This document shows, one piece after another, positions 4,339 through 47,606 of a DNA stretch of 64,000 bases. The position numbers and the translations under genes are program-made. Under the pieces are notes generated by a model that ran no database searches, was not told the origin of the DNA, and saw only the letters and a program-made list of their open reading frames with translations. Source of the DNA: Patescibacteria group bacterium (GTDB lineage Bacteria > Patescibacteriota > JACPGU01). Location: contig JBAYUK010000001.1 in the NCBI GenBank assembly GCA_041675145.1, positions 106,751 through 170,750 of the forward strand, in the 5' to 3' direction. Position 1 is the stretch's first letter; every line of letters begins with the position of its first letter.

Positions 4339-4848
4339 TTATTCCCAGATAACGCGTACAAATTTGTTTCCTGGGCTCCATTTATATGTCACCTTACTCT
4401 GGTATGCTTTTCCAAGGTGGTCACCGATGATTCGTGCGAGGTATGGGCTTGCAGTATACACAATCCAACCGGTTTTTTTCTTATCTATATGTACAATTCT
4501 GTTCTTAGGGTCCTCGTGACGGTGAGCTTCTTCAAGGTTATTGATCATAGCAGTGATTTGAGACGGTACGAGCATCGCAATCTTGTTCTTAAGTACCACT
4601 TCACCCTCATACCAACCGTTTTCAATAGAAAGACACCCAGGACAAACCTTTTCCTTATATTCCTGGCGTTCACTCTCCTTAATTTCAGGATCCCAAAACC
4701 AGTGCTTCTGAGCTTTTACCATACCACACGTTGGGCAGATTAAAACTGTAGATTCAGCCTTGTTGGCTCTCTCCTTAGATTTAAATCCCCCTTCTTGTTG
4801 TTGTCTGACCATTTTCCCTGCTATTTTTGTTGTTCTGAAAATTCCCAT
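4339..4848 (-). CDS. Hypothetical zinc-ribbon protein (CxxC...CxxC); possibly Nmd3/COG1499-like
   Basis: 'ICPTCG' and 'VCPGC' pairs. Similarity to Nmd3-like proteins is only an impression. Confidence 0.4.
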   Translation of the reverse strand: MGIFRTTKIAGKMVRQQQEGGFKSKERANKAESTVLICPTCGMVKAQKHWFWDPEIKESERQEYKEKVCPGCLSIENGWYEGEVVLKNKIAMLVPSQITAMINNLEEAHRHEDPKNRIVHIDKKKTGWIVYTASPYLARIIGDHLGKAYQSKVTYKWSPGNKFVRVIWE

Positions 4849-16168: not shown

Positions 16169-16933
16169 TTATAGCAATGTCAGAATAACCGGACCAGTAG
16201 CAGTAATTGCCACGGTATGCTCAAAATGAGCGGCAATTGTCCCGTCTTCAGTGATCACCGTCCAGTCGTCATCTGAGTCAATAAAGACTTCGTGAGTTCC
16301 CAGCGTTACCATGGGCTCAATAGCTATTACGAGCCCTTCTTCCATCACAGGACCAGAGTTGCTTGCGCCATAGTTGGGAACATGAGGCTCCTCATGAACT
16401 GCCAGTCCTACCCCGTGACCGACATAGTCTCTGACAATACCGAACCGGTGCGGTAAGATATGGGTCTCAACTGCGTTTCCGATCACCCCAATCCTCTTTC
16501 CTGCCTCAATCTGAGCAATACCTTGCATAAGAGCCTCTTCAGTTACCTGTAAGAGCTCTTCTATTTTGGGGTCAGCCTGACCTGCCACAAAAGAAATGGC
16601 CGCATCCGTAATGAGCCCTTTATAGAGCACACCAAAGTCCAAGCTTACGAGATCCCCTTCCTGGATTACCCGCTCTCCTGGGATACCGTGAATAACCTCT
16701 TCGTTAATACTGACACAGATATGTCCTGGGAAGTCGTGATATCCGAGAAAAGCAGCAGTTGCTCCATTCTCTTCTAGAAGTTTAGTGGCGAGGTGGTCGA
16801 TCTCAATAGTTTTGAGTTCACGCTTGGAATAGGTATCCAGCACAAACTTTTTGCATTCCTGCAAAATCATAGCCAAAATCTTCCCTCCCTCTCGCATAGT
16901 CGCTATTTGTTCTGGAGTCTTTAGTGTGATCAT
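16169..16933 (-). CDS. map: Methionine aminopeptidase type I
   Basis: MetAP metal ligands and fold ('[13 protein letters not shown]', '[11 protein letters not shown]'). 254 aa. Confidence 0.95.
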
Positions 16934-17619
16934 GAACCTTTGATAATCTTCATTAATTTATTATGGTTGGTCTTCATACTGCCACTCGCAGTAATTTCAA
17001 CGAATCTTCCTGCTTTCTGGTAGTAGTGTTTCAAAATCTTGCGTTGCAAGTCCATTACCTCGAAACGGTGCTTTATCGCTTCTGGTGTATCGTCTAGTCG
17101 AGTAACAAGATTACCGCCACAGACTGGACAGATACTGTAGGTACGGTTGCCGTTCAGTTTCTTTTTTAAGTCTTTGAGCTGGAACTGTCTCCCGCAGGCA
17201 TCACATTGCCGACGTCCTGACAACCGAGCTATGGCCTCTCTCTTGGTAATGTTAAGGCTTATCATCATGGGAAGTGCCTGACCACGACGAGCAAGCTGTG
17301 AGTCTAGAAAATAGGTCTGGTTCAAGCTTCTGGGATACCCATCAAAAAGCAATATCTTAGTAGGGTCCACCCTATCTAGTACATCAGATACTACTTTCTC
17401 AACTATCCTATCGTCAACAAAGTCCCCTGTCCTCATAGCACGACGAATCCTAAGCCCCGTGATACCAGGGCGACTAGCTCGCTCGCGAAGGATACGACCC
17501 AGTCCTATAACCTGTATTGGAAGATTAGCAGCTAGTAACCCTGCATGAGTAGTCTTACCAGCTCCTGGCATACCAAAGAGGATGAAATTGTGACGAACTT
17601 TTGTTTTTTTTGTTTGCAT
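16930..17619 (-). CDS. adk: Adenylate kinase (zinc-lid type)
   Basis: P-loop 'GMPGAGKTT' and Cys4 lid 'CDACG...CPVCG'. TGGTATAAT lies 8 nt upstream of the ATG. Confidence 0.9.
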   Translation of the reverse strand: MQTKKTKVRHNFILFGMPGAGKTTHAGLLAANLPIQVIGLGRILRERASRPGITGLRIRRAMRTGDFVDDRIVEKVVSDVLDRVDPTKILLFDGYPRSLNQTYFLDSQLARRGQALPMMISLNITKREAIARLSGRRQCDACGRQFQLKDLKKKLNGNRTYSICPVCGGNLVTRLDDTPEAIKHRFEVMDLQRKILKHYYQKAGRFVEITASGSMKTNHNKLMKIIKGS

Positions 17620-17708
17620 TTGCCCTCATTATACCAGGAATACCATCTGGTATCTAGTATTTTGATAACAAACATAAATACAGATATCAAGTATAGTTAT
17701 TGCTTTTA

Positions 17709-17737
17709 TTGACTTATCTGAGCCATTTTGTTATGAT
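17709..17737 (+). promoter_or_regulatory. Sigma70-type promoter TTGACT-17 nt-TATGAT driving the plus-strand small-gene operon
   Basis: The hexamers and spacing are seen directly. Divergent from the adk -10 element. Confidence 0.65.
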
Positions 17738-17804
17738 ATATTCATAGTTCATCCACCCTGATTTATCAGGCGCTCATTAACAAAGGATAGAATAGGACAG
17801 TTTC

Positions 17805-18137
17805 ATGCCCACTTGGATATTAGTCGCAGTAGTTGCAGTAATTACAATCTTTGGCACCATCGTTTCAGCAGTCGTGGCTGGCGTGACGGCTCTTATGATC
17901 CACCACAAAGCTTCGAATGTTATTTCAATTGCTGTCTTCATATATGGACTTCTTGTCACCGTGTACATAAGCTACGACGCGTACAAGAAACTTCAATATG
18001 AAGATCAGCGAGAAGAATACATCATCACCGTAAACGGCAAGATGTATTCTTGCACTAAGAATAAAAAAGCTGACACACTCTGGTGTGAGAGAGCCAAGAA
18101 GAAGGAAAAGCCAAAAGAGACTAAGGAGAATAAATAA
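17805..18137 (+). CDS. Small membrane protein: 2 TM plus a Lys/Glu-rich C-terminal tail (holin-like topology)
   Basis: 110 aa; first gene after the promoter. The stop overlaps the next start (ATGA). Confidence 0.55.
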   Translation: MPTWILVAVVAVITIFGTIVSAVVAGVTALMIHHKASNVISIAVFIYGLLVTVYISYDAYKKLQYEDQREEYIITVNGKMYSCTKNKKADTLWCERAKKKEKPKETKENK

Positions 18138-18334
18138 TGAGCACCATACTGACTTTCCTTCTGTTTTCTGCTTCTCTTGTCCTTGGCATGGCCATATTCA
18201 TCACTGCCATCATCAGTCTTTTTGAATATCCCTTCACAACAGAAGGGGAGCTTTCAATTCCTCAGGTGCTTCTCAGCATAGAAATAGCACTTTTCAGCCT
18301 TTCCCTGTTTGGAGTATTTGCTCTAAATAGATAG
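18137..18334 (+). CDS. Small membrane protein (2 TM, 65 aa)
   Basis: Translationally coupled to the upstream gene and hydrophobic throughout. Confidence 0.5.
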   Translation: MSTILTFLLFSASLVLGMAIFITAIISLFEYPFTTEGELSIPQVLLSIEIALFSLSLFGVFALNR

Positions 18335-18388
18335 ATTGAGTCCCAACACCAACCATGCCGGCGATACCGGAGAAATGCGAGAAGCACA

Positions 18389-18697
18389 ATGAGAAGACTT
18401 AACCTCAACTACCAACAAAGCGAGGATATGCGATACATGCTCGCAATCTTGGATGAAACAAGCGATGATTCAGTTGAAAATGTGAATCAACTCACAAAAG
18501 AACTTATAGAAGCAATTCCATTCAAGATTGAAATCGTTAAGAAGCCTTATGTTCGCTTTGAAAGAGACACAGGCAAAATAATGATTCGTCTTGAATTCAA
18601 CATCGGTAGCTACAGCCACAAAGATTTGGTTTCACAACTTGAAAAGGCTGGTTTCACAAAGTTTATACCTTTGTCTTCATGCCTTAAAACCAAGTAG
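18389..18697 (+). CDS. Hypothetical acidic soluble protein (102 aa)
   Basis: Fits the operon spacing. No known motif. Confidence 0.5.
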   Translation: MRRLNLNYQQSEDMRYMLAILDETSDDSVENVNQLTKELIEAIPFKIEIVKKPYVRFERDTGKIMIRLEFNIGSYSHKDLVSQLEKAGFTKFIPLSSCLKTK

Positions 18698-18720
18698 AGG
18701 AAAGCCAGAAAGGAAGCAAT

Positions 18721-19014
18721 ATGCTGGATTTAAAAAACATCCGACTCAACCATGGAAAGGCCGTTGACCTATCCATTCCTCTTGGGCTCGCCAATTGGTG
18801 GATAACCGAGGGTCCTAACTTCATTCGTGAAGAACTGGATGAACTTATAAGTGAAGTCACAAGCGAGTACAAGGAAACAATCCGCACGCTAGAAATGGTG
18901 CTAGATAAAATCCTGGAACTTGCTGTGGTTGACCTCAAGCTGGCAATGCACTTCTTCAAGCAACTTTTTGGTGACAGCACCAATATGGGCTGGATTCCTG
19001 GAGAAGAGTCATGA
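18721..19014 (+). CDS. Hypothetical soluble protein (97 aa)
   Basis: ORF in operon context. No known motif. Confidence 0.5.
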   Translation: MLDLKNIRLNHGKAVDLSIPLGLANWWITEGPNFIREELDELISEVTSEYKETIRTLEMVLDKILELAVVDLKLAMHFFKQLFGDSTNMGWIPGEES

Positions 19015-19376
19015 TCTTGCGAACAATCGCTCAGGCCGTCATGTTTATAGCGGTGAGTACCGTCGTCAGTCTTGGCTTAATCCAAGAGTCATTCAAGGCT
19101 CTGACAGAAATGGAGCAGAAATCAAGAAACATTGCACATAACTCTGTTCTGTCCGCTCAAGCCTGGCGAAAGACAGCTCTGGAATGGAAAAGAAATTCTC
19201 AAGAGTGGAAGAAATCCTCCAGTGACTGGAAAAATCTCTACCTTGTGGAGAAAAAGATTGCCAATGAATATGCTGATGGAATGGACAAGTACAACTCAGC
19301 ACTTCACAATTGCAAAGCGCTCATTCACAAGAAACGACCAGACTTGGTCTGTATCAACTACAAACAAGGGCGGTGA
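19011..19376 (+). CDS. Membrane-anchored coiled-coil protein (N-terminal TM plus W/K-rich heptad-like repeats 'WRKTALEWKRNSQEWKKSSSDWKN')
   Basis: 4-nt overlap with the upstream gene. Topology resembles TM-anchored coiled-coil proteins such as i-spanins. Confidence 0.5.
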   Translation: MILRTIAQAVMFIAVSTVVSLGLIQESFKALTEMEQKSRNIAHNSVLSAQAWRKTALEWKRNSQEWKKSSSDWKNLYLVEKKIANEYADGMDKYNSALHNCKALIHKKRPDLVCINYKQGR

Positions 19377-19378
19377 CT

Positions 19379-19789
19379 ATGCCTCAAACACACATAATCA
19401 TCCCCTTTCGGGATCGGTTACTTTCATTAGTTCGTGAACACCCAGGATGCACATACCTTTTGTTCTACGAGATCGGAGAAGGAATGATTTATGTATGCAC
19501 CACTCTCGAAGTTCTTGAGCTTCGCGACTGGAGCTACTACGATCTTTCCCTGTATCAACCAAAACACCCAAACAGTATTGACCCAGTGTGGCAAAAAAAG
19601 TACCAGATCGGATGCTTTCGAAGCTGCTACTACCCAGCTGGGTTTTCACCACTTGAAGGGCGCATTGAACACTTCAGCTCCACCTGCACACGAGAGCTAA
19701 ACCCTGCGCCACACACCCACCTTCCTAACCGACTCTTCTTCTCTTATGGACACTTGATACCCAATAGTCTCGGGGTTATCCATGAGTAA
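19379..19789 (+). CDS. Hypothetical Cys/His-rich protein (136 aa); ORF-track 19310..19789 trimmed to the ATG after the upstream stop
   Basis: Last gene of the operon. The terminator starts 2 nt after its stop. Confidence 0.45.
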   Translation: MPQTHIIIPFRDRLLSLVREHPGCTYLLFYEIGEGMIYVCTTLEVLELRDWSYYDLSLYQPKHPNSIDPVWQKKYQIGCFRSCYYPAGFSPLEGRIEHFSSTCTRELNPAPHTHLPNRLFFSYGHLIPNSLGVIHE

Positions 19790-19790
19790 T

Positions 19791-19828
19791 AACCGCCAAG
19801 TGGCAAAAGGCCGCTTCGGCGGTTTTTT
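19791..19828 (+). terminator. Intrinsic terminator (AACCGCC...GGCCGC-TTCG-GCGG-TTTTTT)
   Basis: Nested GC stems with a UUCG-type loop followed by T6. Confidence 0.75.
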
Positions 19829-19946
19829 GTTTGCTAAAATACCTCTTTGTCTAAAAAATATTTTGGTATATAGTGGCAAAAGAGACATATTGCTCGTTAA
19901 TAATAAATCGTGCAGTTATTCCAAAACACAACGAAAGGGGTCAATC

Positions 19947-20558
19947 ATGACCACGCCACCCGCCAAACTTGTCGTTCTTGCTTCCGGCTACGGGAGTAAC
20001 TTTCAGGCCGTTATTGACGCCTGTAAAGCAGAGGTTATCAACGCTCATGTATGCGCACTGGTCACCGACCAGAAAGAAGCGTACTGCCTGACTCGTGCAC
20101 GAACCGAGGATATCAAAAGCATGATCTATCCCAAGTTCAAGGCCGTTTCAAGACAAGCATACGACCAAGGACTTGCTGATCTCGTCACTGTTTTCAAACC
20201 CGACTGGGTTTTGTTGCTTGGCTGGATGCGAATCCTGTCTGGAGCGTTTCTTGATCAATTCCCAGGTAAGGTGATTAACATGCACCCAGCACTTCCGGGG
20301 AAGTTTCCGGGAGTAAACGCTATTGAACGCGCCTTTGCTGCGTTTCAAGAAGGTGAGGTCAACGAGACCGGAGTTATGCTCCACTTCGTCCCAGACGAAG
20401 GAGTAGATGACGGTCCTGTGATTACTCAAGCTACCGTTAGAATTTTTATGTCGGACACACTTGAAACACTGAAGAAGAGAATTCATGACACCGAGCATGC
20501 CCTGCTCGTTTCAACACTACAATCCCTTTGCAAAGTGGGACAACCAGCCCTTATCTAG
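19947..20558 (+). CDS. purN: Formyltransferase, PurN (phosphoribosylglycinamide formyltransferase)-like
   Basis: 'LVVLASGYGSNFQAV' N-terminus and 'HPALPGKFPG' from the folate-binding region; SD 'GAAAGGGG' 6 nt upstream. The ORF-track start at 19782 is probably too far upstream. Confidence 0.75.
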   Translation: MTTPPAKLVVLASGYGSNFQAVIDACKAEVINAHVCALVTDQKEAYCLTRARTEDIKSMIYPKFKAVSRQAYDQGLADLVTVFKPDWVLLLGWMRILSGAFLDQFPGKVINMHPALPGKFPGVNAIERAFAAFQEGEVNETGVMLHFVPDEGVDDGPVITQATVRIFMSDTLETLKKRIHDTEHALLVSTLQSLCKVGQPALI

Positions 20559-20578
20559 GGACATACGAGGAGACCGCC

Positions 20579-20731
20579 ATGAAGACACTTGTGATTGGAG
20601 TTTCAGCCTTCCTTCTTGTTTGGGGAGCAATTGAGCTATGGGAACTAAGCCTCGCTCAAAGCAACCCCAACAGCCGGAAACGACCCTTTCCCCCACTCGG
20701 GGATCCCACACCTGAGTTCGCCGGGGACTAA
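20579..20731 (+). CDS. Small signal-peptide/TM peptide (50 aa) with Pro-rich C-terminus
   Basis: Strong SD 'GAGGAG' 7 nt upstream of the ATG. Hydrophobic N-terminus. Confidence 0.45.
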   Translation: MKTLVIGVSAFLLVWGAIELWELSLAQSNPNSRKRPFPPLGDPTPEFAGD

Positions 20732-20754: not shown

Positions 20755-20786
20755 AGAAAAAAACCACTGCAAAGTGGTTTTTTCTT
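20755..20786. terminator. Bidirectional terminator (AACCACT-GCAA-AGTGGTT flanked by A7 and T5) between convergent secY and the plus-strand island
   Basis: Perfect 7-bp stem with U-tracts on both strands. Confidence 0.8.
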
Positions 20787-20814: not shown

Positions 20815-22104
20815 TTAGTAGTTGTCGTACTTACGCATAACGATTTGTGCATGCATTTGGCGAGCGGTCTCAAGAATGACTGAGACAATAATCAAGATAC
20901 TAGTACCACCCACTAAGACATCCAATGATGGATACGCTACTTGAACAACAAGGGGGAGTACCGCGATAATAGCAAGGAAGAGTGCACCGGTAATAGTTAA
21001 ACGGTTAATGATTGCTCCTAAATACGAAGCGGTCTGGGTTCCTGGGCGCATACCCGGGACAAAGCCACCCTGCTTCTGGATGTTTTCTGCAATCTCAGTA
21101 GGGTTAAACACCACTGAAGTGTAGAAGAACGTGAAAAGCATAACGAGTACAAAGTAGGCTAGGCCGTACCATACACTCGGAGGGCTCACTGAGAATACTT
21201 TTCCAATCCACTGTGCGAAATGCGCTACTTTTTCAGACTTCGCACTAGTAAAGAAGTTGGCGATAATAGTCGGGAAGATCATAAACGAGAGAGCGAAGAT
21301 GATCGGGATCACACCAGCAGTATTGATCTTGAGCGGAAGCTGGGTCTCTACTCCTCCACCGTACATACTAGCTCCTACCTGACGACGAGCATAGGATACC
21401 GGGATAAAGCGGTTTCCTTCGTTGATATAGATGATCGCGATAATTACTCCAAATGAGAGTGCAGCAATTGCTACTACTGGGAGCAGTGATGAAAGACCAG
21501 TATATCCCGCGCCAACGCTCTGGATAATACTCGGCAATGAAGACAAGATACCGGCCATAATGATAAGCGAAGTACCATTTCCAATACCGTTTTCTGTAAT
21601 AAGTTCACCGAGCCACATTAAAAATACTGATCCAGCAGTGACGATTAACATCAAAGAGACAAAGTGCATTGAGTCAACAGAGGTTAGAATTCCTCCACCT
21701 TGGTTCTTGAGGAGCAGTAGCATTCCATATGACTGGAGTAGTGCGAGTGGAATAGTAAGATACCGAGTCCACTGGTTAATCTTGCGACGACCTTCGTCTC
21801 CTTCTTTCTTCATCGCCTCCCATGATGGGATAATGTATGTCAAAAGCTGAGTAATAATTGAGGCATTAATGTACGGTCCCACACCCATCATAATGAGCGA
21901 GAAACGACTCATCGTTCCACCTGAAAAGATATCCAGTAGCCCGAATAATTGAGAACGATCAAAAAACTGCTTAAGCGCTGCGATGTCTACGCCTGGCAAC
22001 GGGATATGTGAGAGAACACGCACGAATAGAATAAGAGCAAGCGTCACAAGAATACGACGGCGTAAGTCCTTCAGACTCCAAATTGTTGCAAGGGTTTTGA
22101 ACAT
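20815..22104 (-). CDS. secY: Preprotein translocase subunit SecY
   Basis: 429 aa, 10 TM, sits between rplO and adk. Confidence 0.95.
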   Translation of the reverse strand: MFKTLATIWSLKDLRRRILVTLALILFVRVLSHIPLPGVDIAALKQFFDRSQLFGLLDIFSGGTMSRFSLIMMGVGPYINASIITQLLTYIIPSWEAMKKEGDEGRRKINQWTRYLTIPLALLQSYGMLLLLKNQGGGILTSVDSMHFVSLMLIVTAGSVFLMWLGELITENGIGNGTSLIIMAGILSSLPSIIQSVGAGYTGLSSLLPVVAIAALSFGVIIAIIYINEGNRFIPVSYARRQVGASMYGGGVETQLPLKINTAGVIPIIFALSFMIFPTIIANFFTSAKSEKVAHFAQWIGKVFSVSPPSVWYGLAYFVLVMLFTFFYTSVVFNPTEIAENIQKQGGFVPGMRPGTQTASYLGAIINRLTITGALFLAIIAVLPLVVQVAYPSLDVLVGGTSILIIVSVILETARQMHAQIVMRKYDNY

Positions 22105-31782: not shown

Positions 31783-32964
31783 TTACGCGACGATCTTCGT
31801 TACAATTCCTGCTCCTACTGTGCGTCCACCTTCGCGAATAGCGAAACGAACACCATCTTCAAGAGCGATCGGAGTAATAAGCTTCACATTGATTTTGATA
31901 GTATCACCAGGCATTACCATTTCAACACCCTCTGGCAAGATTACTTCACCAGTTACATCGGTTGTACGGATGTAGAACTGTGGCTTGTAACCCTTCAAGA
32001 ATGGAGTGTGGCGTCCGCCTTCTTCCTTCTTCAATACATATACTTCACCTTCAAACTCAGAGTATGGCTTGATTGATCCTGTCTTAGCCAAAACCTGACC
32101 ACGCTCGATGTCTTCACGCTCAATACCGCGCAAAAGAACACCTACGTTGTCACCTGCTTGACCCTGATCGAGCAACTTACGGAACATTTCTACTCCAGTA
32201 ACAGTTACTTTCTTAGTGTCTTTAATTCCGAGGATTTCAACTTCTTCACCAACCTTTACGATACCGCGCTCAATACGACCAGTTGCTACAGTTCCACGAC
32301 CCTTAATTGAGAATACATCCTCGATCGGCATAAGGAACGGCTTGTCAGTCTGACGAACTGGTTCTGGGATATAGGTATCAAGAGCTTTTACCAATTCCAT
32401 AATGTGGTCTTCTTCAGCAGCGTCTCCTTCAAGAGCCTTCAGTGCTGAACCACGGATAATTGGAGTGTCTTTACCTGGGAATTCGTTCTTAGTCAAAAGA
32501 TCACGAACTTCTTCCTCAACAAGGTCAATAAGATCCTTGTCTGGAACCATGTCACACTTATTCAAGAATACTACGATATATGGAACACCTACCTGACGAG
32601 CAAGAAGAATGTGTTCACGAGTCTGAGGCATAGGACCGTCAGTAGCAGATACTACAAGGATAGCACCGTCCATCTGAGCAGCTCCTGTGATCATGTTCTT
32701 GATGTAGTCAGCGTGACCTGGACAGTCAACGTGTGCGTAGTGACGTACTTCTGACTCATACTCTACGTGTGAGGTATTAATAGTAATACCACGTGCTTTT
32801 TCTTCTGGCGCATTGTCAATCTGCGCATAACTCTTCGCTTGAGAAAAACCCTTCTTTGCAAGAACGGTTGTAATCGCAGCCGTAAGTGTTGTCTTACCGT
32901 GGTCTACGTGACCGATTGTACCCACATTGATGTGAGTTTTGTTTCGCTGAAAAGCATCTGCCAT
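31783..32964 (-). CDS. tuf: Elongation factor Tu
   Basis: '[15 protein letters not shown]', 'DCPGHADY' and 'NKCD' G-motifs. 393 aa. Confidence 0.97.
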
Positions 32965-33084
32965 GGCAATATTCCTTTCTTTTACTTAGTGTGTATTGAT
33001 AAATATCTAGATTAAGCTCTTTTTTAGCACTATTTAAATGTAGCGCAAAAAAGAAAAGTCGCACGTAAAATGCACTTGAAGTTC

Positions 33085-33113
33085 ATTCTACTCTATATTT
33101 TGATCTGTTGCAA
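33085..33113 (-). promoter_or_regulatory. tuf promoter: TTGCAA-17 nt-TAGAAT on minus strand
   Basis: Minus-strand read: CCCTTGCAACAGATCAAAATATAGAGTAGAAT. Its upstream half is identical to the infA promoter. Confidence 0.6.
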
Positions 33114-33142
33114 GGGGAATTTTTCGAGAAAGAGAGGTCTTA

Positions 33143-33757
33143 CTATAGCAACTCTAGTAAATGAGTTATGCTAGAAATGTAGTGATCTGGGTTCGCCTGT
33201 TTTAGCTTTTCTTCTGGTTGGTATCCCCAGCCCAACGCAACAGTCATGACGCCTGCCTTTTTACCTGCATCAATATCGTGCGTCATATCTCCGACATATG
33301 CAGTTTCCTGTGAACTAAAATTATTCCTCTGGAGGATATCTTGTATAGCTACTGTTTTGTCGTGGATACTACCGTTAATCTCCTGAAAGAAAGGTTGCAA
33401 CCCATAATATGCCGCCTCTGTTATGAGCTTGTCATGGGGATGAGAACTAATAACGATCATACTGATACTGCACGATCTCAGCTCTTCGAGTACTGAGACC
33501 ACCCCAGGATAGATAGTTGGTTCTTCCACCTGGTGAATCGCCTCCAGATAAAGGGCATCCTGTTTTTCTTTGGTCAAATCTGGAAAATACTTGTGCCAAA
33601 AAAGCATGTACGGTAAAACAAACTCTCTTCTGCATTCATCTTGAGATATCGGTTCATGTCCTAGTACTTTAAAAACTAAAGCGATCGCCTTACAAACAGG
33701 AGTAAAATCGTCACTTAGAGTACCAGACCAATCAAAGATAATATTCTTTATCATCAT
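33143..33757 (-). CDS. HAD-superfamily hydrolase (phosphoglycolate phosphatase-like)
   Basis: Motif I 'IIFDWSGTL' (DxD variant) and motif IV 'VGDMTHD'. Confidence 0.75.
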   Translation of the reverse strand: MMIKNIIFDWSGTLSDDFTPVCKAIALVFKVLGHEPISQDECRREFVLPYMLFWHKYFPDLTKEKQDALYLEAIHQVEEPTIYPGVVSVLEELRSCSISMIVISSHPHDKLITEAAYYGLQPFFQEINGSIHDKTVAIQDILQRNNFSSQETAYVGDMTHDIDAGKKAGVMTVALGWGYQPEEKLKQANPDHYISSITHLLELL

Positions 33758-33763
33758 TCAAGT

Positions 33764-34219
33764 CTAGTCTCCTGAAATTACTAATCTCATCTCTCCTGTT
33801 TGTACAAACCCCATATCCTCATAAAGTTTTCTTGCAAATCTTGAGGCATCTAGTTTTATAAATGTAACACCATTCATCTTAAACCACTTAATTACGGACT
33901 CCGTTAGAGTTTTGGCAATCCCTTTTTTTCTAAAAAGTGACTCAACGAAAACATCTAATATCCAGCCATAATTTCTGCAATTAAGAGCGATGAACGGGAA
34001 ATCGTCTCTTATAAATCCTCCTGCAATTCCTACAAGTTTGTCATCTTCATAATATCCAAAGTGTATTCCTTTATTTTGTTCATACATTTCCTTATAGTAT
34101 TTGGTTGATACCTCTCTCCAGTCAGGCGCAAGATGCTTGTCGGCTTGATTCTCTTCTAGCATTTTAAACCTAAGATCTAAAATCTGAGGAATGTCAGCAA
34201 CTGTCATTTCTTTAATCAT
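33764..34219 (-). CDS. GNAT family N-acetyltransferase (start at internal Met)
   Basis: Acetyl-CoA motif 'FRKKGIAKTL'. The N-terminal 36 aa of the ORF-track frame is unlikely to be real. Confidence 0.7.
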   Translation of the reverse strand: MIKEMTVADIPQILDLRFKMLEENQADKHLAPDWREVSTKYYKEMYEQNKGIHFGYYEDDKLVGIAGGFIRDDFPFIALNCRNYGWILDVFVESLFRKKGIAKTLTESVIKWFKMNGVTFIKLDASRFARKLYEDMGFVQTGEMRLVISGD

Positions 34220-34277
34220 AATAATTCTGAGGTTAATAGTAATTGTTACTTGAAATAATAAAGGAAATAAGAACGAC

Positions 34278-34739
34278 TTAATAGAGACTACATATTTTCT
34301 TCCCAATATCATACGCCACGATCCCAAAAGCTACTGATACATTAAAAGATTTGCGACTACCCAGCATTGGGATGTGAATGAGTTGGTCAGCCTGATCTCT
34401 AAGAGATTTAGATACTCCCCTCACTTCGTTACCCATTAATAATGCTATCTTTTTATTAGGCACAAGATTCTTGAAGTCAATTGAACGACTGTCTTGCTCG
34501 CATACGACTATCTGATATCCCTCCAATTTGAGCTTCTTTATAACATACGATATGTTCCTACGGTACTCCCAGGGAATCCGATTCTCTGACCCAAGAGCTA
34601 CCTTGGCAATCTCACGACGAGGAGGAAACCCAGTATATCCAGTCAAATACACCTTAGAAACACCCGCTCCTTCGCTGGTCCGAAAGATCGAACCAACGTT
34701 GTGCAGACTCCTGATATTATGCGCAATGACGATAAGCAT
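34278..34739 (-). CDS. SpoU/TrmH-family RNA 2'-O-methyltransferase
   Basis: SPOUT motifs 'VGSIFRTSEGAG' and 'LLMGNEVRGVS'. Confidence 0.75.
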   Translation of the reverse strand: MLIVIAHNIRSLHNVGSIFRTSEGAGVSKVYLTGYTGFPPRREIAKVALGSENRIPWEYRRNISYVIKKLKLEGYQIVVCEQDSRSIDFKNLVPNKKIALLMGNEVRGVSKSLRDQADQLIHIPMLGSRKSFNVSVAFGIVAYDIGKKICSLY

Positions 34740-34889
34740 ACAGAAAGTATATCAGTAAGTATGGTAGAACGAAACAGTAACGCAACCCAGCTATTCACAG
34801 GTAATTATGAAATAATTTGCCTTATTATGGCTATTTAATATCAATATGATATAATACGGGAACAAAAAAATCAAAGTGAGGTTATAACC

Positions 34890-35429
34890 GTGAAAAAGAA
34901 AGCTTCTAAAGCCCCTTCACAACCAGCCAATAAACGACTCCGAAGCGCTCTTGCGGTGTGTCAAGAGACACAAGTCAAGGTGTACGACCAAATCACGGAA
35001 CACATAAAAAAAATCCGTGGCCAAATGGCATTTAGCCTGTATGGAGCCGGCGAGACAGTCCTACTGTCTTCAGCCCAACCAGAGAAAACAACGACAGGTA
35101 TTGCTATCCTGTGGACACATCAGAGCAACCTGCCACAACACCTCAACCACCGTCTTGTGTTCGTCCCTAATACTCAAATCTATTCACACGACACCCGCCC
35201 CAAAGAAATGCTTGTGTTGGATATTTCGCAATGCGACCTACCGAATAAGCATGGACTACGAGAACGTCTTAAGGAGATCGACAAGCTTCAGAAACAAAAC
35301 AACGAGCTTTTTAACGACCTTGGAAAACTTCGTAAACTTCAGAAGTATTCAGACAAGGATGTTAAGCGAGTCGTTCCTGACTGGAGCCCTGACCGCGAGG
35401 TTTTACGCCGACACGGATTTCGAATCTAA
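34890..35429 (+). CDS. Hypothetical basic protein (179 aa), GTG start with SD 'AGTGAGG'
   Basis: Plus-strand ORF with an upstream TGATATAAT-like -10 element. Confidence 0.5.
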   Translation: MKKKASKAPSQPANKRLRSALAVCQETQVKVYDQITEHIKKIRGQMAFSLYGAGETVLLSSAQPEKTTTGIAILWTHQSNLPQHLNHRLVFVPNTQIYSHDTRPKEMLVLDISQCDLPNKHGLRERLKEIDKLQKQNNELFNDLGKLRKLQKYSDKDVKRVVPDWSPDREVLRRHGFRI

Positions 35430-35684
35430 AGGAGGATTCATGCCACGCCACACCCACTATTCTCGTTGAAAAAAATACCAGGGTCAAAAAGGGCAGAAAG
35501 GACAGAAACGCCACACTTCCGGCTCAGGCCTTTTTCAACAACAGGACGGAAGAATACCCCAAAGAAGTCTGAAACGACTTCTCAAACAAATCAAAGATGA
35601 AGCATGGAACAAGCCATATCGCCATTAACCATTTTTTGGGAGGAGAAAGATACTACCATCCTAACTCTCGCTCCAACGAACATA

Positions 35685-35708
35685 AGCGCCACCCTTCGGG
35701 GTGGCGCT
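35685..35708. terminator. Bidirectional stem-loop AGCGCCACCC-UUCG-GGGTGGCGCT between convergent transcription units
   Basis: 10-bp GC stem with a UUCG tetraloop and U-rich flanks on both strands. It argues against the overlapping ORF 35604..35822. Confidence 0.6.
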
Positions 35709-35742
35709 GTTGATTTCTATTTAGAAACTAACTACAAATACC

Positions 35743-36009
35743 TTATTTCTTATAAAGATAACTATGAGTGCCGATACGATAAAACAGTACCGTATCTTCT
35801 CCCGGAGCATAACGCAGTATAAGTCTAATGTCACCCGTTATGTCTATGCTTTGGAATCCTTCAAACCTACCCCTAAGGTGATGATAATTAAGAAGTGGAT
35901 CAAAGGGGTTTACTATAAATAGATTCACTCTTTCAATAAAGGATATCTTTTGACCCTTAAGAAGAGTTTTTACTTCCTTCTCGAATCGACGATGATTTTT
36001 TATTTTCAT
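35743..36009 (-). CDS. Type II toxin, RelE/ParE superfamily (YafQ-like mRNA interferase)
   Basis: 'HHLRGRFEGFQSIDITGDIRLILRY...FYRIGTHSYLY' matches the YafQ/RelE pattern. 4-nt overlap with the upstream antitoxin. Confidence 0.8.
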   Translation of the reverse strand: MKIKNHRRFEKEVKTLLKGQKISFIERVNLFIVNPFDPLLNYHHLRGRFEGFQSIDITGDIRLILRYAPGEDTVLFYRIGTHSYLYKK

Positions 36010-36293
36010 TTTTGCTTATCTATAGATGCCATCATTTCCTCAACACTATTAAAGGCAGGAGACCAGTTTATACCTTTTTTGTAGTCCTCATCTGCCTGTA
36101 GCAACTCTTCTGCAATCTCGTCTCGTAATTCATGTGTATCCTCGAGTACCACTCGACGATTTTTAACTGTTTCTCGAAGAGACATATTTACTAATGCAGT
36201 CATAGTAATACCAAATGTATCTGCCAACTTTTCCGCTTCTTTCTTGAACCCCTGGTCAATTTTAATGTGAAGCGTAGTAGTACTATTCTTCAT
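36006..36293 (-). CDS. Type II antitoxin, RelB/DinJ family (ribbon-helix-helix)
   Basis: 'TLHIKIDQGFKKEAEKLADTFGITMTALVNMSLRE' is a DinJ-like RHH N-terminus. Confidence 0.8.
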   Translation of the reverse strand: MKNSTTTLHIKIDQGFKKEAEKLADTFGITMTALVNMSLRETVKNRRVVLEDTHELRDEIAEELLQADEDYKKGINWSPAFNSVEEMMASIDKQK

Positions 36294-36308
36294 GCTGATA
36301 ACCTAATT

Positions 36309-36349
36309 GTATATACCTAAAATATACCTTTTTGGTATATACTTGTCAA
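36309..36349 (-). promoter_or_regulatory. TA promoter/operator: TTGACA-17-TATATT overlapped by a perfect 9-bp inverted repeat GTATATACC...GGTATATAC
   Basis: Seen directly; the typical autoregulatory architecture of a TA operon. Confidence 0.65.
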
Positions 36350-36363
36350 TAATTCTGTAGTCA

Positions 36364-36750
36364 CTATTTCTTATCTAGCTGTAGCGCTGCCGAGTTAATA
36401 CAATACCGCTCCCCTGTCTCGGTCGGTCCGTCTTTAAAAACATGTCCTAAATGTGAACCACAGTTCTTGCAGATTACTTCAGTTCGCTTCATGCCATGCG
36501 AAACATCATCAACCAGAACTACATGCTCTAAATCTGCTGGCCGGTCAAAAGATGGCCAGCCAGTACCAGACTCGAATTTGGCATCAGAAGAGAAAAGTTC
36601 TTGGGAACAAGCCGCACACTTATACATACCTGCTTCTTTTGTTGCACAATACTCTCCGGAAAACGGAGCCTCAGTCCCTTTGTGACGCAGTACTCCGTAC
36701 TGCTCAGGAGTAAGCTTTGCCTTCCACTCTTCATCGGATATATTCATCAT
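36364..36750 (-). CDS. msrB: Peptide-methionine (R)-S-oxide reductase
   Basis: SelR motifs 'GWPSF' and '[17 protein letters not shown]', with two CxxC pairs. Confidence 0.9.
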
Positions 36751-36751
36751 A

Positions 36752-37138
36752 TTAGACCTCCTCGGTATGCTCGCGACGAATCACCGACCAGTGGTAACCC
36801 AAAAGTGGCAAGCCAACAATAAGGAGTGCAACATCTTGAGCAAGGTCACGATTCATGTTGTTCTTTTTATCCAGTGCCTTTCGCTCCTGGTCTTCTACTT
36901 TCTTCTGGGCATATTGTTCATCCGTACACGGTTTGCGGTCGTAGGTCATTGAGCTTGGCACATCCATATAACAGTCGGTACGAGTTAGTGGGTAGTTGTA
37001 TGAGTACCCGTCATTCGGGAACACATAGATACTTAACACGAGCTGGATCAGTGAGATAAGAGCGATAAGGACCATAATCAAGCCAGCTGCTGAAAAGCTA
37101 TACAGATAAATGTTGCGCAGTGAAAAAGAGAGTTTCAT
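36752..37138 (-). CDS. Small membrane protein (2 TM), start trimmed to Met-30 because the upstream part overlaps the gmk terminator
   Basis: Hydrophobic N-half and charged C-half. Confidence 0.45.
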
Positions 37139-37181
37139 ACAAAATTTTAATACTAATACCTCTATACTACCTACTTTATAC

Positions 37182-37216
37182 AAAAAAGAAACCCCAGCCT
37201 TTTGTAAGGTGGGGTT
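37182..37216 (-). terminator. Intrinsic terminator after gmk (AACCCCA...TGGGGTT with U-tract)
   Basis: 7-bp stem; T-rich on the minus strand downstream. Confidence 0.65.
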
Positions 37217-37235
37217 CCAGGTCAATGGTGCGAAT

Positions 37236-37913
37236 TTATAGGCGCTGAAGCCTCTGCATGCGCTGATGAATTATGTGCTCCAATTCAGCACATGCTTTTT
37301 CAAAGTTATCATTTACCAGCGAGCAGTCGAACAGCGGTTCAAATGCAAGCTCCTTCTTGGCTAGCTCGAGCCTCTCCTCAATGTTGTCTCGTCCCCCGCT
37401 CTCACGCATGCGCCGTTCTAGTTCGCGCATACTGGGAGGCTTGATCAGGACCGTAAGCACCAGTGGACCAAGCTCGTTCTTGATGTTTGTTGCTCCAACC
37501 GGCTCAACATCGAGCAAAAGATGCCTGCCATGATTAACCAACTGCATCACCTTATCTTTAGGAGTGCCATACCAGACACCTTCATGCACCTGGTTGGTTT
37601 CGAGAAAGAAACCCTCGTCTTTGAGTCGCAAAAAGGTCTTCTTGTCTGTGTGGGTGTAGTGCACTCCGTCGATTTCATCATAGACTTTACCAGTCTTTTT
37701 GCACACAACTCCAGTCCTCAGAGCCCTTGTGGTGCATGACACCACAAACCTGAATTTGTATTTTTCAACTAAACGGTTCTTCAAGGCTCCTTTTCCAACA
37801 GCAGATGGACCCGAGAGAACGAGCAGTTGCGGATTTGGGCCGTTCGAGCCAACAAATCCCTTGTAATCCATCTTCTTGGGCTTGCTTCTTTCTTCTTTCT
37901 TTACGTAAGCCAT
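37236..37913 (-). CDS. gmk: Guanylate kinase
   Basis: P-loop 'LSGPSAVGKG', 'VSCTTR' and NMP-binding motifs. Confidence 0.9.
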   Translation of the reverse strand: MAYVKKEERSKPKKMDYKGFVGSNGPNPQLLVLSGPSAVGKGALKNRLVEKYKFRFVVSCTTRALRTGVVCKKTGKVYDEIDGVHYTHTDKKTFLRLKDEGFFLETNQVHEGVWYGTPKDKVMQLVNHGRHLLLDVEPVGATNIKNELGPLVLTVLIKPPSMRELERRMRESGGRDNIEERLELAKKELAFEPLFDCSLVNDNFEKACAELEHIIHQRMQRLQRL

Positions 37914-38017
37914 TGCAGACTCCTTTCCTTGTGTGTATTTTCCGACTGTAAAAGAGGATCGAGGAGTAATGTCACTCCCTGATATTTCCTGTATTATAGC
38001 AGTTTTGTACTATACAT

Positions 38018-38046
38018 AAAAGACCCGCCTTGTAGCGGGTCTTTTA
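38018..38046. terminator. Bidirectional terminator AGACCCGC-CTTGTA-GCGGGTCT with A/T tracts
   Basis: 8-bp GC stem with flanking A4 and T4. Confidence 0.8.
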
Positions 38047-38787
38047 TTCTTTTATATTAAATATACTGAATATGTACTTTACTCTAGTTTTAATCGGATC
38101 CACTAATCTTGAAATTACCTTATCAAAATATATCGCACAATCACTAAAACAAATAACTAAAATCAATGTTAAAACCAAACCATATTCCCATGTCGTTATA
38201 AAAGATAACTTTCTAAGCGAAAAAACTAATGTAACTACTCCACCCATAAATAGCAACACCAGCAACTCCTTGAAGTACGATAAATACCCATGATCTTTCT
38301 GCTTAATACCACTATCGTTACTTTGCACCTTAGCAATAATCCCACCATAAATATTATCTAATTTTTTAAAGTCATGAGATTTAAAACCATCAAGCCACGC
38401 GTTATTGACTACCTCATTCGTATCGTAATACTCATTTGAAATCCTGGCTACCTCATTAGCTCTTATGTCTATATTTTCCCTCAAGAAGAATACCGAGAAA
38501 ACTATCTGTAAAAATAAAAGTATATAACCGGACTCAAAAAAATATATTCTTGAGGGTAAAACATGTGGATATATAAAACCCACTAAGCCCATTATAGCAA
38601 TAGAGATAGTAAGCAGTAACCTTATAAACTCCACTCCTTCTTTTCTTGCCGCATCGCGCTGACTCTGTAGTAGAACTACATTCTGATGATAGTCATTTAG
38701 ATATGACTCGTACCTCTTTTTCATATCTTCAAGATAATCCCTACTAACCGATTCTTCTACTATTGAGTCGTCTAACATATAAAACAA
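38044..38787 (-). CDS. Hypothetical polytopic membrane protein (247 aa)
   Basis: Charged N-terminal domain followed by 4-5 TM segments. Confidence 0.5.
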   Translation of the reverse strand: MFYMLDDSIVEESVSRDYLEDMKKRYESYLNDYHQNVVLLQSQRDAARKEGVEFIRLLLTISIAIMGLVGFIYPHVLPSRIYFFESGYILLFLQIVFSVFFLRENIDIRANEVARISNEYYDTNEVVNNAWLDGFKSHDFKKLDNIYGGIIAKVQSNDSGIKQKDHGYLSYFKELLVLLFMGGVVTLVFSLRKLSFITTWEYGLVLTLILVICFSDCAIYFDKVISRLVDPIKTRVKYIFSIFNIKE

Positions 38788-38801
38788 AGTTACTAACTAC
38801 T

Positions 38802-38825
38802 AATGAGGGGCTTACGCCCCTCATT
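38802..38825 (-). terminator. Stem-loop AATGAGGGGC-TTAC-GCCCCTCATT downstream of fusA
   Basis: 10-bp perfect stem 12 nt after the fusA stop. The U-tract is weak. Confidence 0.5.
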
Positions 38826-38836
38826 CTGTCTCAATT

Positions 38837-40930: not shown

Positions 40931-40971
40931 AAAAATAAGTTAGATATATTGAAGTTATATAGTACTGGATC

Positions 40972-41002
40972 AGCAAAATAAAATACGCTCAAAGCGTTTG
41001 AG
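40972..41002 (-). terminator. Intrinsic terminator ending the surface-protein operon (CTCAAA-GCG-TTTGAG followed by U-rich on minus strand)
   Basis: Hairpin about 35 nt downstream of the 41041 stop. Confidence 0.55.
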
Positions 41003-41040
41003 AGTAATTATACTGGATTTATCTGGTTTTGCAAGGAGTA

Positions 41041-46642: not shown

Positions 46643-46712
46643 GTAAACATAGTTATACAGGATTTAGTATACGGTATTTTCTAGAAGAAAAGTGTGGATA
46701 AATAAAAAGAAT

Positions 46713-46733
46713 GGAGACGCATTTAGCGTCTCC
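46713..46733 (-). terminator. Stem-loop GGAGACGC-ATTTA-GCGTCTCC after the protease gene (partial terminator or processing site)
   Basis: 8-bp perfect stem with T-rich sequence downstream on the minus strand. Confidence 0.5.
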
Positions 46734-46757
46734 ACATTCAAAGTATCGTTGAGAAAG

Positions 46758-47528: not shown

Positions 47529-47547
47529 CCTTTTTTGAACTAAATAT

Positions 47548-47575: not shown

Positions 47576-47606
47576 TACATTGGTAAATAGATGCAATTAT
47601 TACACT

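What the first reader, a model, noticed from the sequence alone, without database searches (positions are those of the whole stretch)
17640..19830. Oppositely transcribed six-gene operon of small unknown proteins inserted between secY and adk
secY-adk-map are contiguous in most bacteria. Here a 3.2-kb insert separates them. It begins with a near-consensus promoter (TTGACT-17-TATGAT, 17709-17737) and ends at a terminator placed 2 nt after the last stop (19791-19828). It encodes six tightly packed or overlapping genes on the strand opposite to all flanking genes. These are a 2-TM protein with a highly charged tail (holin-like topology), a 65-aa 2-TM protein, two small acidic soluble proteins, an N-terminally anchored coiled-coil protein with W/K-rich heptad repeats (i-spanin-like topology), and a Cys/His-rich 136-aa protein. 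None carries a motif I recognise. The compact, self-contained, membrane-associated architecture resembles phage lysis/abortive-infection cassettes or small defence/toxin-immunity modules. That resemblance is inference only.
Basis: partly seen in the sequence, partly recalled or inferred. Interest (0 to 1): 0.7.

Follow-up and report, generated by a model that had tools for sequence, protein, structure and literature searches.

The report
Orphan six-gene operon splitting secY–adk
A poorly sampled Patescibacteria (CPR) genome carries a real, self-contained operon of six small proteins, three of them membrane-anchored, wedged backwards between secY and adk; none has a detectable relative among about 15 billion proteins, so its function stays open and it is a curiosity rather than a demonstrated new system.

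Summary
Between adk (16930-17619, -) and secY (20815-22104, -) lies a 3.2-kb block on the + strand. It starts with a near-consensus promoter and six packed ORFs (P1-P6, 17805-19789). A strong intrinsic terminator follows.

Host-like codon statistics, Shine-Dalgarno-like motifs and 99.7% stop-free coverage say the six ORFs are genes.

All six are strict orphans. P2-P6 gave only self-hits in a full phmmer scan of 1.84 billion representatives. P1 and P6 gave only self-hits in the 5.8-billion-cluster search. Phage, plasmid, viral-contig, PDB, Pfam, NCBIfam, PHROG and PADLOC searches gave no credible match.

The only lead is a weak P1 match to SLATT 2TM effectors. It is within shuffle noise in Pfam and about 6 bits above it in PADLOC.

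138 related loci have a tight secY-adk/map junction (median gap about 50 nt). None carries these genes. The closest SecY is only 55% identical.

There are no mobile-element, prophage or endolysin marks, and composition is native.

Best reading: a lineage-restricted, membrane-associated accessory module, possibly conflict-related. The phage-lysis reading is disfavoured. Interest is modest, because species-level orphans are common in this phylum.

The parts
17628..17656 (-). Promoter-like site (TAGATA-17-TATAAT, TG-extended) for adk-map-infA. Its -10 ends 8 nt before the adk ATG.
   Evidence: sequence. It is a consensus match only.
17709..17737 (+). Promoter-like site TTGACT-17-TATGAT (TG-extended) of the six-gene operon
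   Evidence: 10/12 matches
17757..17770 (+). Perfect palindrome CCTGATttATCAGG in the roughly 60-nt leader. It could be an operator or a small hairpin.
   Evidence: unique in the window, but 12 of 100 shuffles give at least one match.: the leader fold is not exceptional (z = -0.5).
17805..18137 (+). P1, 110 aa. It has a 2-TM hairpin and a 54-aa Lys-rich tail with 2 Cys (pI 9.3). It is an orphan with a marginal SLATT_6 / 2TM-effector resemblance.
18137..18334 (+). P2, 65 aa. It is a 2-TM hairpin with an acidic loop. Its start overlaps the P1 stop (TAATG). Orphan.
18389..18697 (+). P3, 102 aa (alternative start 18437, 86 aa). It is soluble. It shares a frame with P2, separated by one TAG and 18 sense codons. 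Orphan.
18721..19014 (+). P4, 97 aa. It is soluble, acidic (pI 4.6) and predicted helical. Orphan.
19011..19376 (+). P5, 121 aa. It has an N-terminal signal-anchor TM segment, then long helices with four exact heptads [E/D]-W-[K/R]-[K/R]-x-x-x (Trp at 52/59/66/73) and 2 Cys. Its start overlaps the P4 stop (ATGA). Orphan.
19379..19789 (+). P6, 136 aa. It is soluble, with 5 Cys, 8 His, 12 Pro and 10 Tyr. It has the weakest codon margin of the six. Orphan.
19791..19833 (+). Intrinsic terminator of the operon: hairpin 19791-19824 plus a U-tract
   Evidence: -23.1 kcal/mol, z = -4.6
19847..19874 (+). Promoter-like site TTGTCT-16-TATAGT ahead of purN
   Evidence: 9/12 matches
19947..20558 (+). purN (phosphoribosylglycinamide formyltransferase). 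It is the second + strand unit of the same insert.
   Evidence: PF00551, 5e-48; TIGR00639, 201 bits against a cut-off of 150
20579..20731 (+). 50-aa ORF with an N-terminal TM segment and a Pro-rich tail. Hypothetical.
   Evidence: coding margin 0.275
20758..20783 (.). Bidirectional intrinsic terminator shared by convergent purN/orf50 (+) and secY (-)
   Evidence: -17.2 and -14.0 kcal/mol; U-tracts on both strands

Best explanation
P1-P6 are real protein-coding genes restricted to this lineage. They form one translationally coupled operon with its own promoter and terminator. The operon sits in a break of the spc/alpha ribosomal gene cluster of a poorly sampled Patescibacteria genome.

Inferred mechanism:
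- The products assemble into a small membrane-associated complex.
- The two hairpin proteins P1 and P2 form the membrane core.
- P5 is anchored by its N-terminus and projects a Trp/Lys-striped helix with a possible disulfide outside the cell.
- P3, P4 and P6 are cytoplasmic partners that bind or control the long basic tail of P1.

The most likely role is a fast-evolving accessory one at the envelope. In my leading guess it is a conflict-type module: a membrane-permeabilising hairpin effector (P1) kept in check by its operon partners. It is not a housekeeping function and not a phage lysis cassette.

What is shown and what is inferred:
- Shown: gene reality, operon signals, topology, orphan status, absence from relatives, and absence of mobile-element marks.
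- Inferred: complex formation and the conflict role.

My estimates: real operon about 0.85; membrane complex about 0.5; conflict/effector role about 0.25.
For: - Coding: the annotated frame is best of six for every ORF, with margins above all 81 shadow ORFs. Stop-free coverage is 99.7%, against at most 78% in shuffles. SD-like motifs and start/stop overlaps are present.
- Transcription unit: promoter and terminator are in place.
- Topology: hydropathy segments and helices in the low-confidence AF2 model.
- Orphan status: only self-hits. There are no paralogues.
- Not housekeeping, not conserved at the site.
- Native-like composition: tetranucleotide z is at most 1.4. There are no repeats, tRNA or integrase.
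- The genome tolerates other lineage-specific interruptions of the ribosomal clusters, at S7/EF-G and EF-G/EF-Tu.
- Hint of an effector role: the P1 score of 22.7 bits to the PADLOC 2TM effector model is 6 bits above the best of 10 composition-matched controls.
- Orphans are very common in Patescibacteria (PMC9132574), which fits native, fast-evolving accessory genes.
Against: - There is no expression, conservation or dN/dS evidence, because only one genome carries the genes.
- P2, P5 and P6 have weaker codon margins (0.14-0.19) than any of 32 long genes of the window (minimum 0.256).
- P2 and P3 could be one gene broken by a TAG.
- The Pfam and NCBIfam SLATT scores are within shuffle noise.
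- No sensor or enzyme partner typical of defence systems was recognised.
- Structure models are unusable: pLDDT 37 and 43.
Confidence: 0.45

Rival explanations
1. P1 is a true SLATT-family pore-forming effector. The operon would then be a nucleotide-signal or other sensor-coupled abortive-infection defence system, with P2-P6 as novel sensor or regulator components.
For: - P1's best hits in three libraries are to the same family: PADLOC PDLC00695 '2TM effector' at 1.5e-5 (22.7 bits), Pfam SLATT_6 at 0.0017, and NCBIfam SLATT_6 at 0.0023.
- The PADLOC score exceeds 10 reversed or shuffled controls, whose best is 16.7 bits.
- The 2-TM topology fits the family description (PMC9226505).
Against: - The scores are far below the curated cut-offs: 18.4 against 27.1 bits, and 17.6 against 100 bits.
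- Shuffled P1 reaches 19.0 bits to unrelated Pfam families.
- Reversed P1 itself hits a SLATT-type model, RTasSLATT, at 0.0085.
- P1 covers only part of the profile (positions 41-117 of 176-195).
- No SMODS, SLOG, TIR, RT or other known partner is in the operon or its flanks.
Confidence: 0.12
2. The operon encodes lineage-specific envelope or secretion-associated accessory proteins, that is, ordinary cell biology rather than conflict. In other Patescibacteria membrane proteins are found at the same secY-adk junction, so the position beside secY would be functional or at least tolerated for membrane-protein genes.
For: - About a dozen CPR loci have 1-2 kb inserts at this junction, and several of the encoded proteins scanned are membrane proteins. 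They include presenilin-type signal-peptide peptidase PF06550 (4e-14), DUF389 and TerC/DUF475.
- Three of the six products are membrane-anchored.
- Composition is native.
- The metabolic gene purN shares the insert.
Against: - Those inserts are on the secY strand and share no similarity with P1-P6.
- No match to SecG, YajC, DivIC, pilin or any envelope family.
- Housekeeping envelope factors are usually conserved at least within a class, but these have no relative at all.
Confidence: 0.2
3. The operon is the remnant of a CPR prophage lysis or moron cassette, with a holin (P1), an antiholin (P2) and a spanin-like protein (P5).
For: - P1 has class-II-holin-like topology with a charged C-terminal tail.
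- P5 has i-spanin-like topology.
- The cassette is compact.
- CPR phages are poorly sampled, so orphan status would be expected.
Against: - There is no endolysin or other peptidoglycan hydrolase, no phage structural or integration genes, and no att repeats or tRNA.
- The holin hits (E 0.05-0.18) are reproduced by shuffled P1.
- No relative was found in IMG/VR, INPHARED or PHROGs.
- There is no o-spanin.
- Composition is native.
Confidence: 0.04
4. The ORFs are non-functional or decaying. They would be young de novo ORFs or broken remnants that merely persist between two transcription units.
For: - Only one genome carries them.
- P2, P5 and P6 have lower codon margins than established genes.
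- P2 and P3 are in one frame, separated by a single TAG.
- P6 is poorly structured in AF2.
Against: - Six consecutive ORFs fill 99.7% of 2 kb on one strand.
- All have frame-specific host codon usage above every shadow ORF.
- SD-like motifs, coupled starts, a strong promoter match and a strong terminator are present.
- No remnant of any known gene lies on either strand.
Confidence: 0.12

Closest known systems
SLATT domain 2TM effectors (Pfam PF18169 SLATT_6; PADLOC CBASS-type '2TM' effectors)
   Same: P1 is a small protein with a 2-TM hairpin followed by a cytoplasmic segment. SLATT is the best-scoring family for P1 in three libraries.
   Different: - Scores are below every curated cut-off and near shuffle noise.
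- P1 is about half the profile length.
- No signal-generating or sensing partner gene is present.
Class II phage holins with spanins (lysis cassettes)
   Same: P1 has two TM segments plus a highly charged C-terminal tail. P5 has an N-terminal anchor plus a helical ectodomain. The genes are tightly packed and overlapping.
   Different: - There is no endolysin, no o-spanin and no phage context.
- There is no significant holin-family match.
- The host is presumed to lack an outer membrane (established knowledge of CPR envelopes, not tested here).
Same-strand inserts at the secY-adk junction of other Patescibacteria (presenilin-type signal-peptide peptidase PF06550, DUF389, TerC/DUF475)
   Same: The genomic site is the same. 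Membrane-protein content interrupts an otherwise tight junction.
   Different: - Those are single, recognisable families on the secY strand.
- Here there are six unrecognisable small proteins plus purN on the opposite strand, with their own promoter and terminators.
Taxonomically restricted (orphan) genes of Patescibacteria (PMC9132574)
   Same: There is no homologue outside the lineage and function is unknown. The phylum has the highest unknown-to-known gene ratio, with 45,788 species-level unknown clusters.
   Different: - Here six orphans are organised as one signal-bounded operon.
- The operon lies inside the most conserved gene cluster of bacteria.

Membership tests
[quoted passage not shown] | Match to a family profile at or above its curated threshold | tested here: not met
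   - Pfam SLATT_6 scores 18.4 bits against a gathering score of 27.1. NCBIfam SLATT_6 scores 17.6 bits against 100.
- Shuffled P1 reaches 19.0 bits to unrelated Pfam families.
[quoted passage not shown] | Similarity beyond what TM composition alone gives | tested here: inconclusive
   PADLOC PDLC00695 scores 22.7 bits (1.5e-5). The best of 10 reversed or segment-shuffled controls scores 16.7 bits (9.6e-4).
[quoted passage not shown] | Two to three TM helices | tested here: met
   Hydropathy segments lie within residues 1-33 and 35-58. AF2 helices span 3-33 and 37-65 (low confidence).
[quoted passage not shown] | Fusion to, or neighbourhood with, a sensor or signal enzyme (SMODS/CD-NTase, SLOG, TIR, reverse transcriptase, RADAR, GAP1) | tested here: not met
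   No such family appears in P2-P6 or within 10 kb either side. The feature is as described in PMC7159879 and PMC9226505.
Phage holin-endolysin(-spanin) lysis cassette | Small TM protein with a charged C-terminus that matches a holin family | tested here: not met
   - The topology is present.
- The holin hits are only E 0.047 (PF07332) and 0.18 (phrog_6854).
- Shuffled P1 reproduces them.
Phage holin-endolysin(-spanin) lysis cassette | Adjacent endolysin or other peptidoglycan hydrolase | tested here: not met
   No hydrolase family was found in P2-P6, purN or orf50.
Phage holin-endolysin(-spanin) lysis cassette | Phage or prophage context | tested here: not met
   - The flanks are ribosomal and housekeeping genes.
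- There are no phage or viral relatives.
- There are no att-like repeats or tRNA.
Phage holin-endolysin(-spanin) lysis cassette | An o-spanin lipoprotein partner for the i-spanin-like protein | tested here: not met
   No ORF with a signal peptide or lipobox is embedded in or follows P5. P6 has no hydrophobic N-terminus.
Known anti-phage defence systems (PADLOC-DB v2.0) | At least the core proteins of a catalogued system present together | tested here: not met
   Five of the six proteins give no hit at E <= 1. P1 gives only the marginal 2TM hit.
Mobile genetic element / genomic island | Integrase or transposase, flanking direct repeats, a tRNA target, deviant composition | tested here: not met
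   - No repeats bracket the insert.
- There is no tRNA in 64 kb.
- There are no recombinase hits.
- Tetranucleotide z is at most 1.4 and GC lies within about 2 sd of the window mean.
Taxonomically restricted (orphan) protein-coding genes | No detectable homologue outside the lineage | tested here: met
   - P2-P6: full phmmer against 1.84e9 representatives gives self-hits only.
- P1 and P6: the word-seeded search of 5.8e9 clusters gives self-hits only. P1 was not scanned by the full phmmer.
- The 90% clusters hold one sequence each, apart from start-site variants of P3 and purN.
Taxonomically restricted (orphan) protein-coding genes | Evidence that the ORFs are translated genes rather than chance ORFs | tested here: met
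   Statistical evidence only. Expression cannot be tested with these tools.

The most novel reading that the evidence does not exclude
The six orphans constitute a previously unseen kind of small membrane-embedded module. Examples would be a gated pore or toxin with dedicated cytoplasmic controllers and an external Trp/Lys-zipper sensor, used for phage defence or for the episymbiont-host interface. The module would have originated within a deep Patescibacteria lineage and be fixed inside its ribosomal gene cluster.
Probability: 0.25. Interest if true: 0.6.

Novelty: categorically new. Interest (0 to 1): 0.33.

Why it matters
If functional, these are six new protein families organised as one unit, with no relative among about 15 billion known proteins. 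They sit in one of the most conserved gene orders in bacteria. That makes them a compact, clonable candidate for CPR-specific membrane biology, such as defence, toxin control or host contact.

Two caveats limit the claim:
- 'New' here means 'no detectable relative', not 'new mechanism shown'.
- Species-level orphans are abundant in Patescibacteria, and this lineage is badly undersampled (nearest SecY 55% identical).

The practical value is as a small test case for orphan-gene function and for how ribosomal superoperons get interrupted.

Tried and rejected
1. A concatenated six-protein query to the word-seeded homology search returned nothing, not even self. That search was wasted.
2. AlphaFold2 without an alignment gave unusable models: P6 at pLDDT 36.6, and P1-P5 concatenated at pLDDT 43.3. 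No fold search was run, because matches would be meaningless.
3. PDB phmmer for P1, P3, P4, P5 and P6 gave only E >= 0.17 noise.
4. tblastn against phages and plasmids, and pattern plus tblastn scans of IMG/VR for P1, P3, P4, P5 and P6, gave nothing.
5. I looked for closer relatives of the organism to get presence/absence and dN/dS. The SecY scans of GTDB genomes and JGI metagenomes top out at 55% and 52% identity. The exact IF-1 sequence occurs only in this organism's contigs. The two contigs read that carry the cassette are identical to the window.
6. I tested whether the + strand ORFs could be shadows of a decayed same-strand insert such as the SPP, DUF389 or TerC genes seen in other CPR. 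There is no significant tblastn hit on either strand.
7. Internal paralogy among P1-P6, and copies elsewhere in the window, were not found.
8. There is no tandem repeat at the DNA level under the P5 heptads.
9. There is no Rfam or tRNA feature.
10. The holin and SLATT Pfam hits were rejected as evidence after the shuffle controls.
Full report
**What is there**

The window comes from a Patescibacteria (CPR) metagenome-assembled genome. NCBI calls it 'Patescibacteria group bacterium', with locus tags WC045_00710-00745. The contigs are 377-428 kb.

On the - strand the usual ribosomal cluster runs L15 (22106-22600), then secY (20815-22104). It resumes with adk (16930-17619), map, infA, S13, S11, S4, rpoA and L17.

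Between secY and adk lie 3195 bases whose genes are all on the + strand. The layout is:
- a promoter-like site, TTGACT-17-TATGAT with a TG extension, at 17709-17737. It is the joint best match in the region.
- a leader of about 60 nt containing a perfect palindrome, CCTGATttATCAGG. It is unique in the window but not statistically compelling.
- six ORFs: P1 17805-18137, P2 18137-18334, P3 18389-18697, P4 18721-19014, P5 19011-19376 and P6 19379-19789.
- a hairpin at 19791-19824 followed by a U-tract. Its energy is -23.1 kcal/mol, z = -4.6, and no shuffle folds as well.

- a second promoter-like site at 19847-19874;
- purN at 19947-20558 (TIGR00639, 201 bits against a cut-off of 150);
- a 50-aa ORF with an N-terminal TM segment at 20579-20731;
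- a bidirectional terminator at 20758-20783, shared with the convergent secY.

adk has its own promoter-like site, 17656 to 17628 on the - strand. The insert is therefore fully wired into local transcription.

**Are the six ORFs genes?**

- Stop-free stretches of at least 60 codons cover 99.7% of 17805-19789 on one strand. In 300 shuffles the mean is 41% and the maximum 78%.
- I trained a codon model on 32 long genes of the window. The annotated frame beats the other five frames for every ORF, by 0.14-0.35 nats per codon. None of 81 shadow ORFs of the window exceeds 0.034 (first pass).
- P2, P5 and P6 (0.14-0.19) fall below the weakest long gene (0.256). Their adaptation is therefore poorer.
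- Each start has a purine-rich SD-like motif. P1/P2 and P4/P5 overlap start to stop, and P5/P6 are 2 nt apart.
- P2 and P3 share a frame, separated by one TAG and 18 sense codons. This could be two genes or one recently broken gene.

I conclude these are, or very recently were, translated genes (about 0.85).

**What the proteins look like**

- P1 has two hydrophobic helices and a 54-residue Lys-rich tail with two Cys (pI 9.3).
- P2 is a bare 2-TM hairpin with an acidic loop.
- P3 (pI 6.6-7.8) and P4 (pI 4.6) are soluble.
- P5 has one N-terminal TM segment after Arg4. That suggests N-in, C-out topology.
- P5 then has long helices carrying four exact heptads, [E/D]-W-[K/R]-[K/R]-x-x-x, with Trp at 52, 59, 66 and 73. 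It also has two Cys 13 residues apart.
- P6 is soluble, with 5 Cys, 8 His, 12 Pro and 10 Tyr.
- There is no similarity among the six and no paralogue in the window.
- AlphaFold2 without an alignment gave pLDDT 36.6 for P6 and 43.3 for concatenated P1-P5. These models are usable only as a rough secondary-structure guess, so I ran no fold search.

**Homology**

- A full phmmer scan of concatenated P2-P6 returned five hits, all self. The library holds 1.84 billion representatives of about 15 billion proteins.
- The word-seeded search of 5.8 billion clusters returned only self for P1 and for P6.
- The 90% clusters hold a single sequence each, apart from start-site variants of P3 and purN.
- Nothing was found in IMG/VR, INPHARED phages or PLSDB plasmids, or the PDB.
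- Pfam, NCBIfam, PHROGs and PADLOC give nothing for P2-P6.

The only lead is P1:
- PADLOC '2TM effector' PDLC00695 at 1.5e-5 (22.7 bits);
- Pfam SLATT_6 at 0.0017 (18.4 bits; gathering score 27.1);
- NCBIfam SLATT_6 at 0.0023 (17.6 bits; cut-off 100).

I tested this lead with reversed and segment-shuffled P1:
- In PADLOC the controls reach 16.7 bits. Reversed P1 even hits a SLATT-type model, RTasSLATT.
- In Pfam the controls reach 19.0 bits to unrelated families. They also reproduce the weak holin hit.

So the Pfam and NCBIfam scores are noise-level, and the PADLOC score is about 6 bits above noise. That is suggestive at most.

SLATT proteins are described as 2-3-TM pore-forming effectors. They are coupled to sensor or signal enzymes such as SMODS, SLOG, TIR, RT, RADAR and GAP1 (PMC7159879, PMC9226505). 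No such partner is recognisable here.

**Synteny**

- SecY scans of GTDB species representatives and of JGI metagenomes gave 160 loci.
- The best SecY identity is only 55% (a Berkelbacteria MAG) and 52%, so the lineage is badly undersampled.
- The exact IF-1 sequence occurs nowhere else.
- In 138 loci with secY and a downstream adk, map or infA, the median gap is about 50 nt. None contains P1-P6 (best tblastn E 0.75) or purN in the gap.
- About a dozen CPR loci do have 1-2 kb inserts at this junction. These are on the secY strand, and several of the proteins scanned belong to recognisable families. They include a presenilin-type signal-peptide peptidase (PF06550, 4e-14), DUF389, TerC/DUF475 and a 23S-rRNA-IVS protein.
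- No remnant of those genes is present in our insert on either strand.
- Within this genome the str cluster is also interrupted twice. S7 is followed by 256-aa, 1648-aa (FG-GAP) and 221-aa proteins before EF-G. EF-G is followed by a 246-aa ORF without a Pfam match, guanylate kinase, a DUF5671 protein, SpoU, GNAT and HAD genes before EF-Tu.

Loosened ribosomal clusters therefore seem to be a trait of the genome. The secY-adk site is not a special property of this cassette.

**Origin**

- No direct repeats bracket the insert.
- There is no tRNA or Rfam feature in the 64 kb.
- There is no recombinase.
- Tetranucleotide distance (z at most 1.4) and GC are ordinary for the window.

Nothing marks the insert as recently acquired or mobile.

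**Interpretation**

The shown facts are a real, signal-bounded, translationally coupled operon of six orphan proteins. Three are membrane-anchored. The operon is native in composition and absent from all sampled relatives.

The inference I commit to is a small membrane-associated complex:
- P1 and P2 form the membrane core.
- P5 provides an ectodomain.
- P3, P4 and P6 are cytoplasmic partners of the basic P1 tail.
- The role is a fast-evolving accessory one. My leading guess is a conflict-type module in which a hairpin effector is held in check by its partners.

The overall confidence for this package is 0.45, and for the conflict role itself about 0.25.

Rivals:
- an ordinary envelope or secretion accessory set (0.20);
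- true SLATT-family defence (0.12);
- decaying or non-functional ORFs (0.12);
- a prophage lysis remnant (0.04). This one is disfavoured because there is no endolysin, o-spanin, phage context or phage relative.

**Novelty and interest**

Every membership test against a known family failed or was inconclusive. By distance from known systems this is therefore 'categorically new'. That is so only in the sense of having no detectable relative.

Patescibacteria have one of the two largest unknown-to-known gene ratios among bacterial phyla. They carry tens of thousands of species-level unknown gene clusters (PMC9132574). This lineage has no sampled close relative either. Orphan status is thus expected for any accessory gene here.

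The unusual elements are two: six orphans organised as one operon, and their backwards position inside the secY-adk junction.

A specialist would be mildly, not strongly, surprised, and no open question becomes testable from this alone. Interest is 0.33.

Noticed in passing
window 38837-48134 and 31783-40930: The str cluster is interrupted twice. S7 (47658-48134) is followed by a 256-aa unknown protein, a 1648-aa FG-GAP/DUF5122 beta-propeller protein (41696-46642) and a 221-aa unknown protein before EF-G (38837-40930). The 1648-aa gene has the most deviant tetranucleotide composition of the window, with z up to 3.9. EF-G is then separated from EF-Tu (31783-32964) by about 6 kb. That stretch holds a 246-aa ORF without a Pfam match and guanylate kinase, DUF5671, SpoU methylase, GNAT and HAD genes.
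   Followed up: partly
L012 11978-12925; L006 12095-12937; L011 12389-13222; L015 11302-12135: Several other Patescibacteria carry a same-strand membrane-protein gene of about 280-316 aa between secY and adk. The L012 copy is a presenilin-type signal-peptide peptidase (PF06550, 4e-14). The others share the motif WEALL..FLGIWYVFLL but fall below Pfam detection. A signal-peptide peptidase next to secY may be a functional pairing.
   Followed up: partly
window 19947-20731: A bona fide purN (TIGR00639, 201 bits) with a trailing 50-aa TM/Pro-rich ORF sits in the same insert as its own transcription unit. A lone purine-synthesis formyltransferase is unexpected in a CPR genome, from my own knowledge of CPR metabolism. 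Other pur genes were not looked for.
   Followed up: no
window 18332-18391: P2 and P3 are in the same reading frame, separated by one TAG and 18 sense codons. They may be one 2-TM-plus-soluble-domain gene split by a nonsense mutation, or a read-through pair.
   Followed up: no
window 4339-4848 (-): A 168-aa protein matches Pfam NMD3 above its gathering score (35.5 against 24.9 bits). To my knowledge this family is eukaryotic and archaeal.
   Followed up: no
window 17617-17660 (-): The adk promoter-like -10 (TATAAT) ends only 8 nt before the adk ATG. If used, it would give a leaderless or nearly leaderless mRNA. It overlaps a 7-bp-stem palindrome, ATACCAG...CTGGTAT.
   Followed up: no
L017 12300-12653: A Magasanikbacteria locus has a 23S-rRNA-intervening-sequence protein gene (PF05635, 3.6e-13) in its secY-adk gap.
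   Followed up: no
window 1-64000: There is no tRNA gene and no Rfam family at gathering threshold anywhere in the 64 kb, despite the dense ribosomal-protein content. No ribosomal leader motifs were detected.
   Followed up: no
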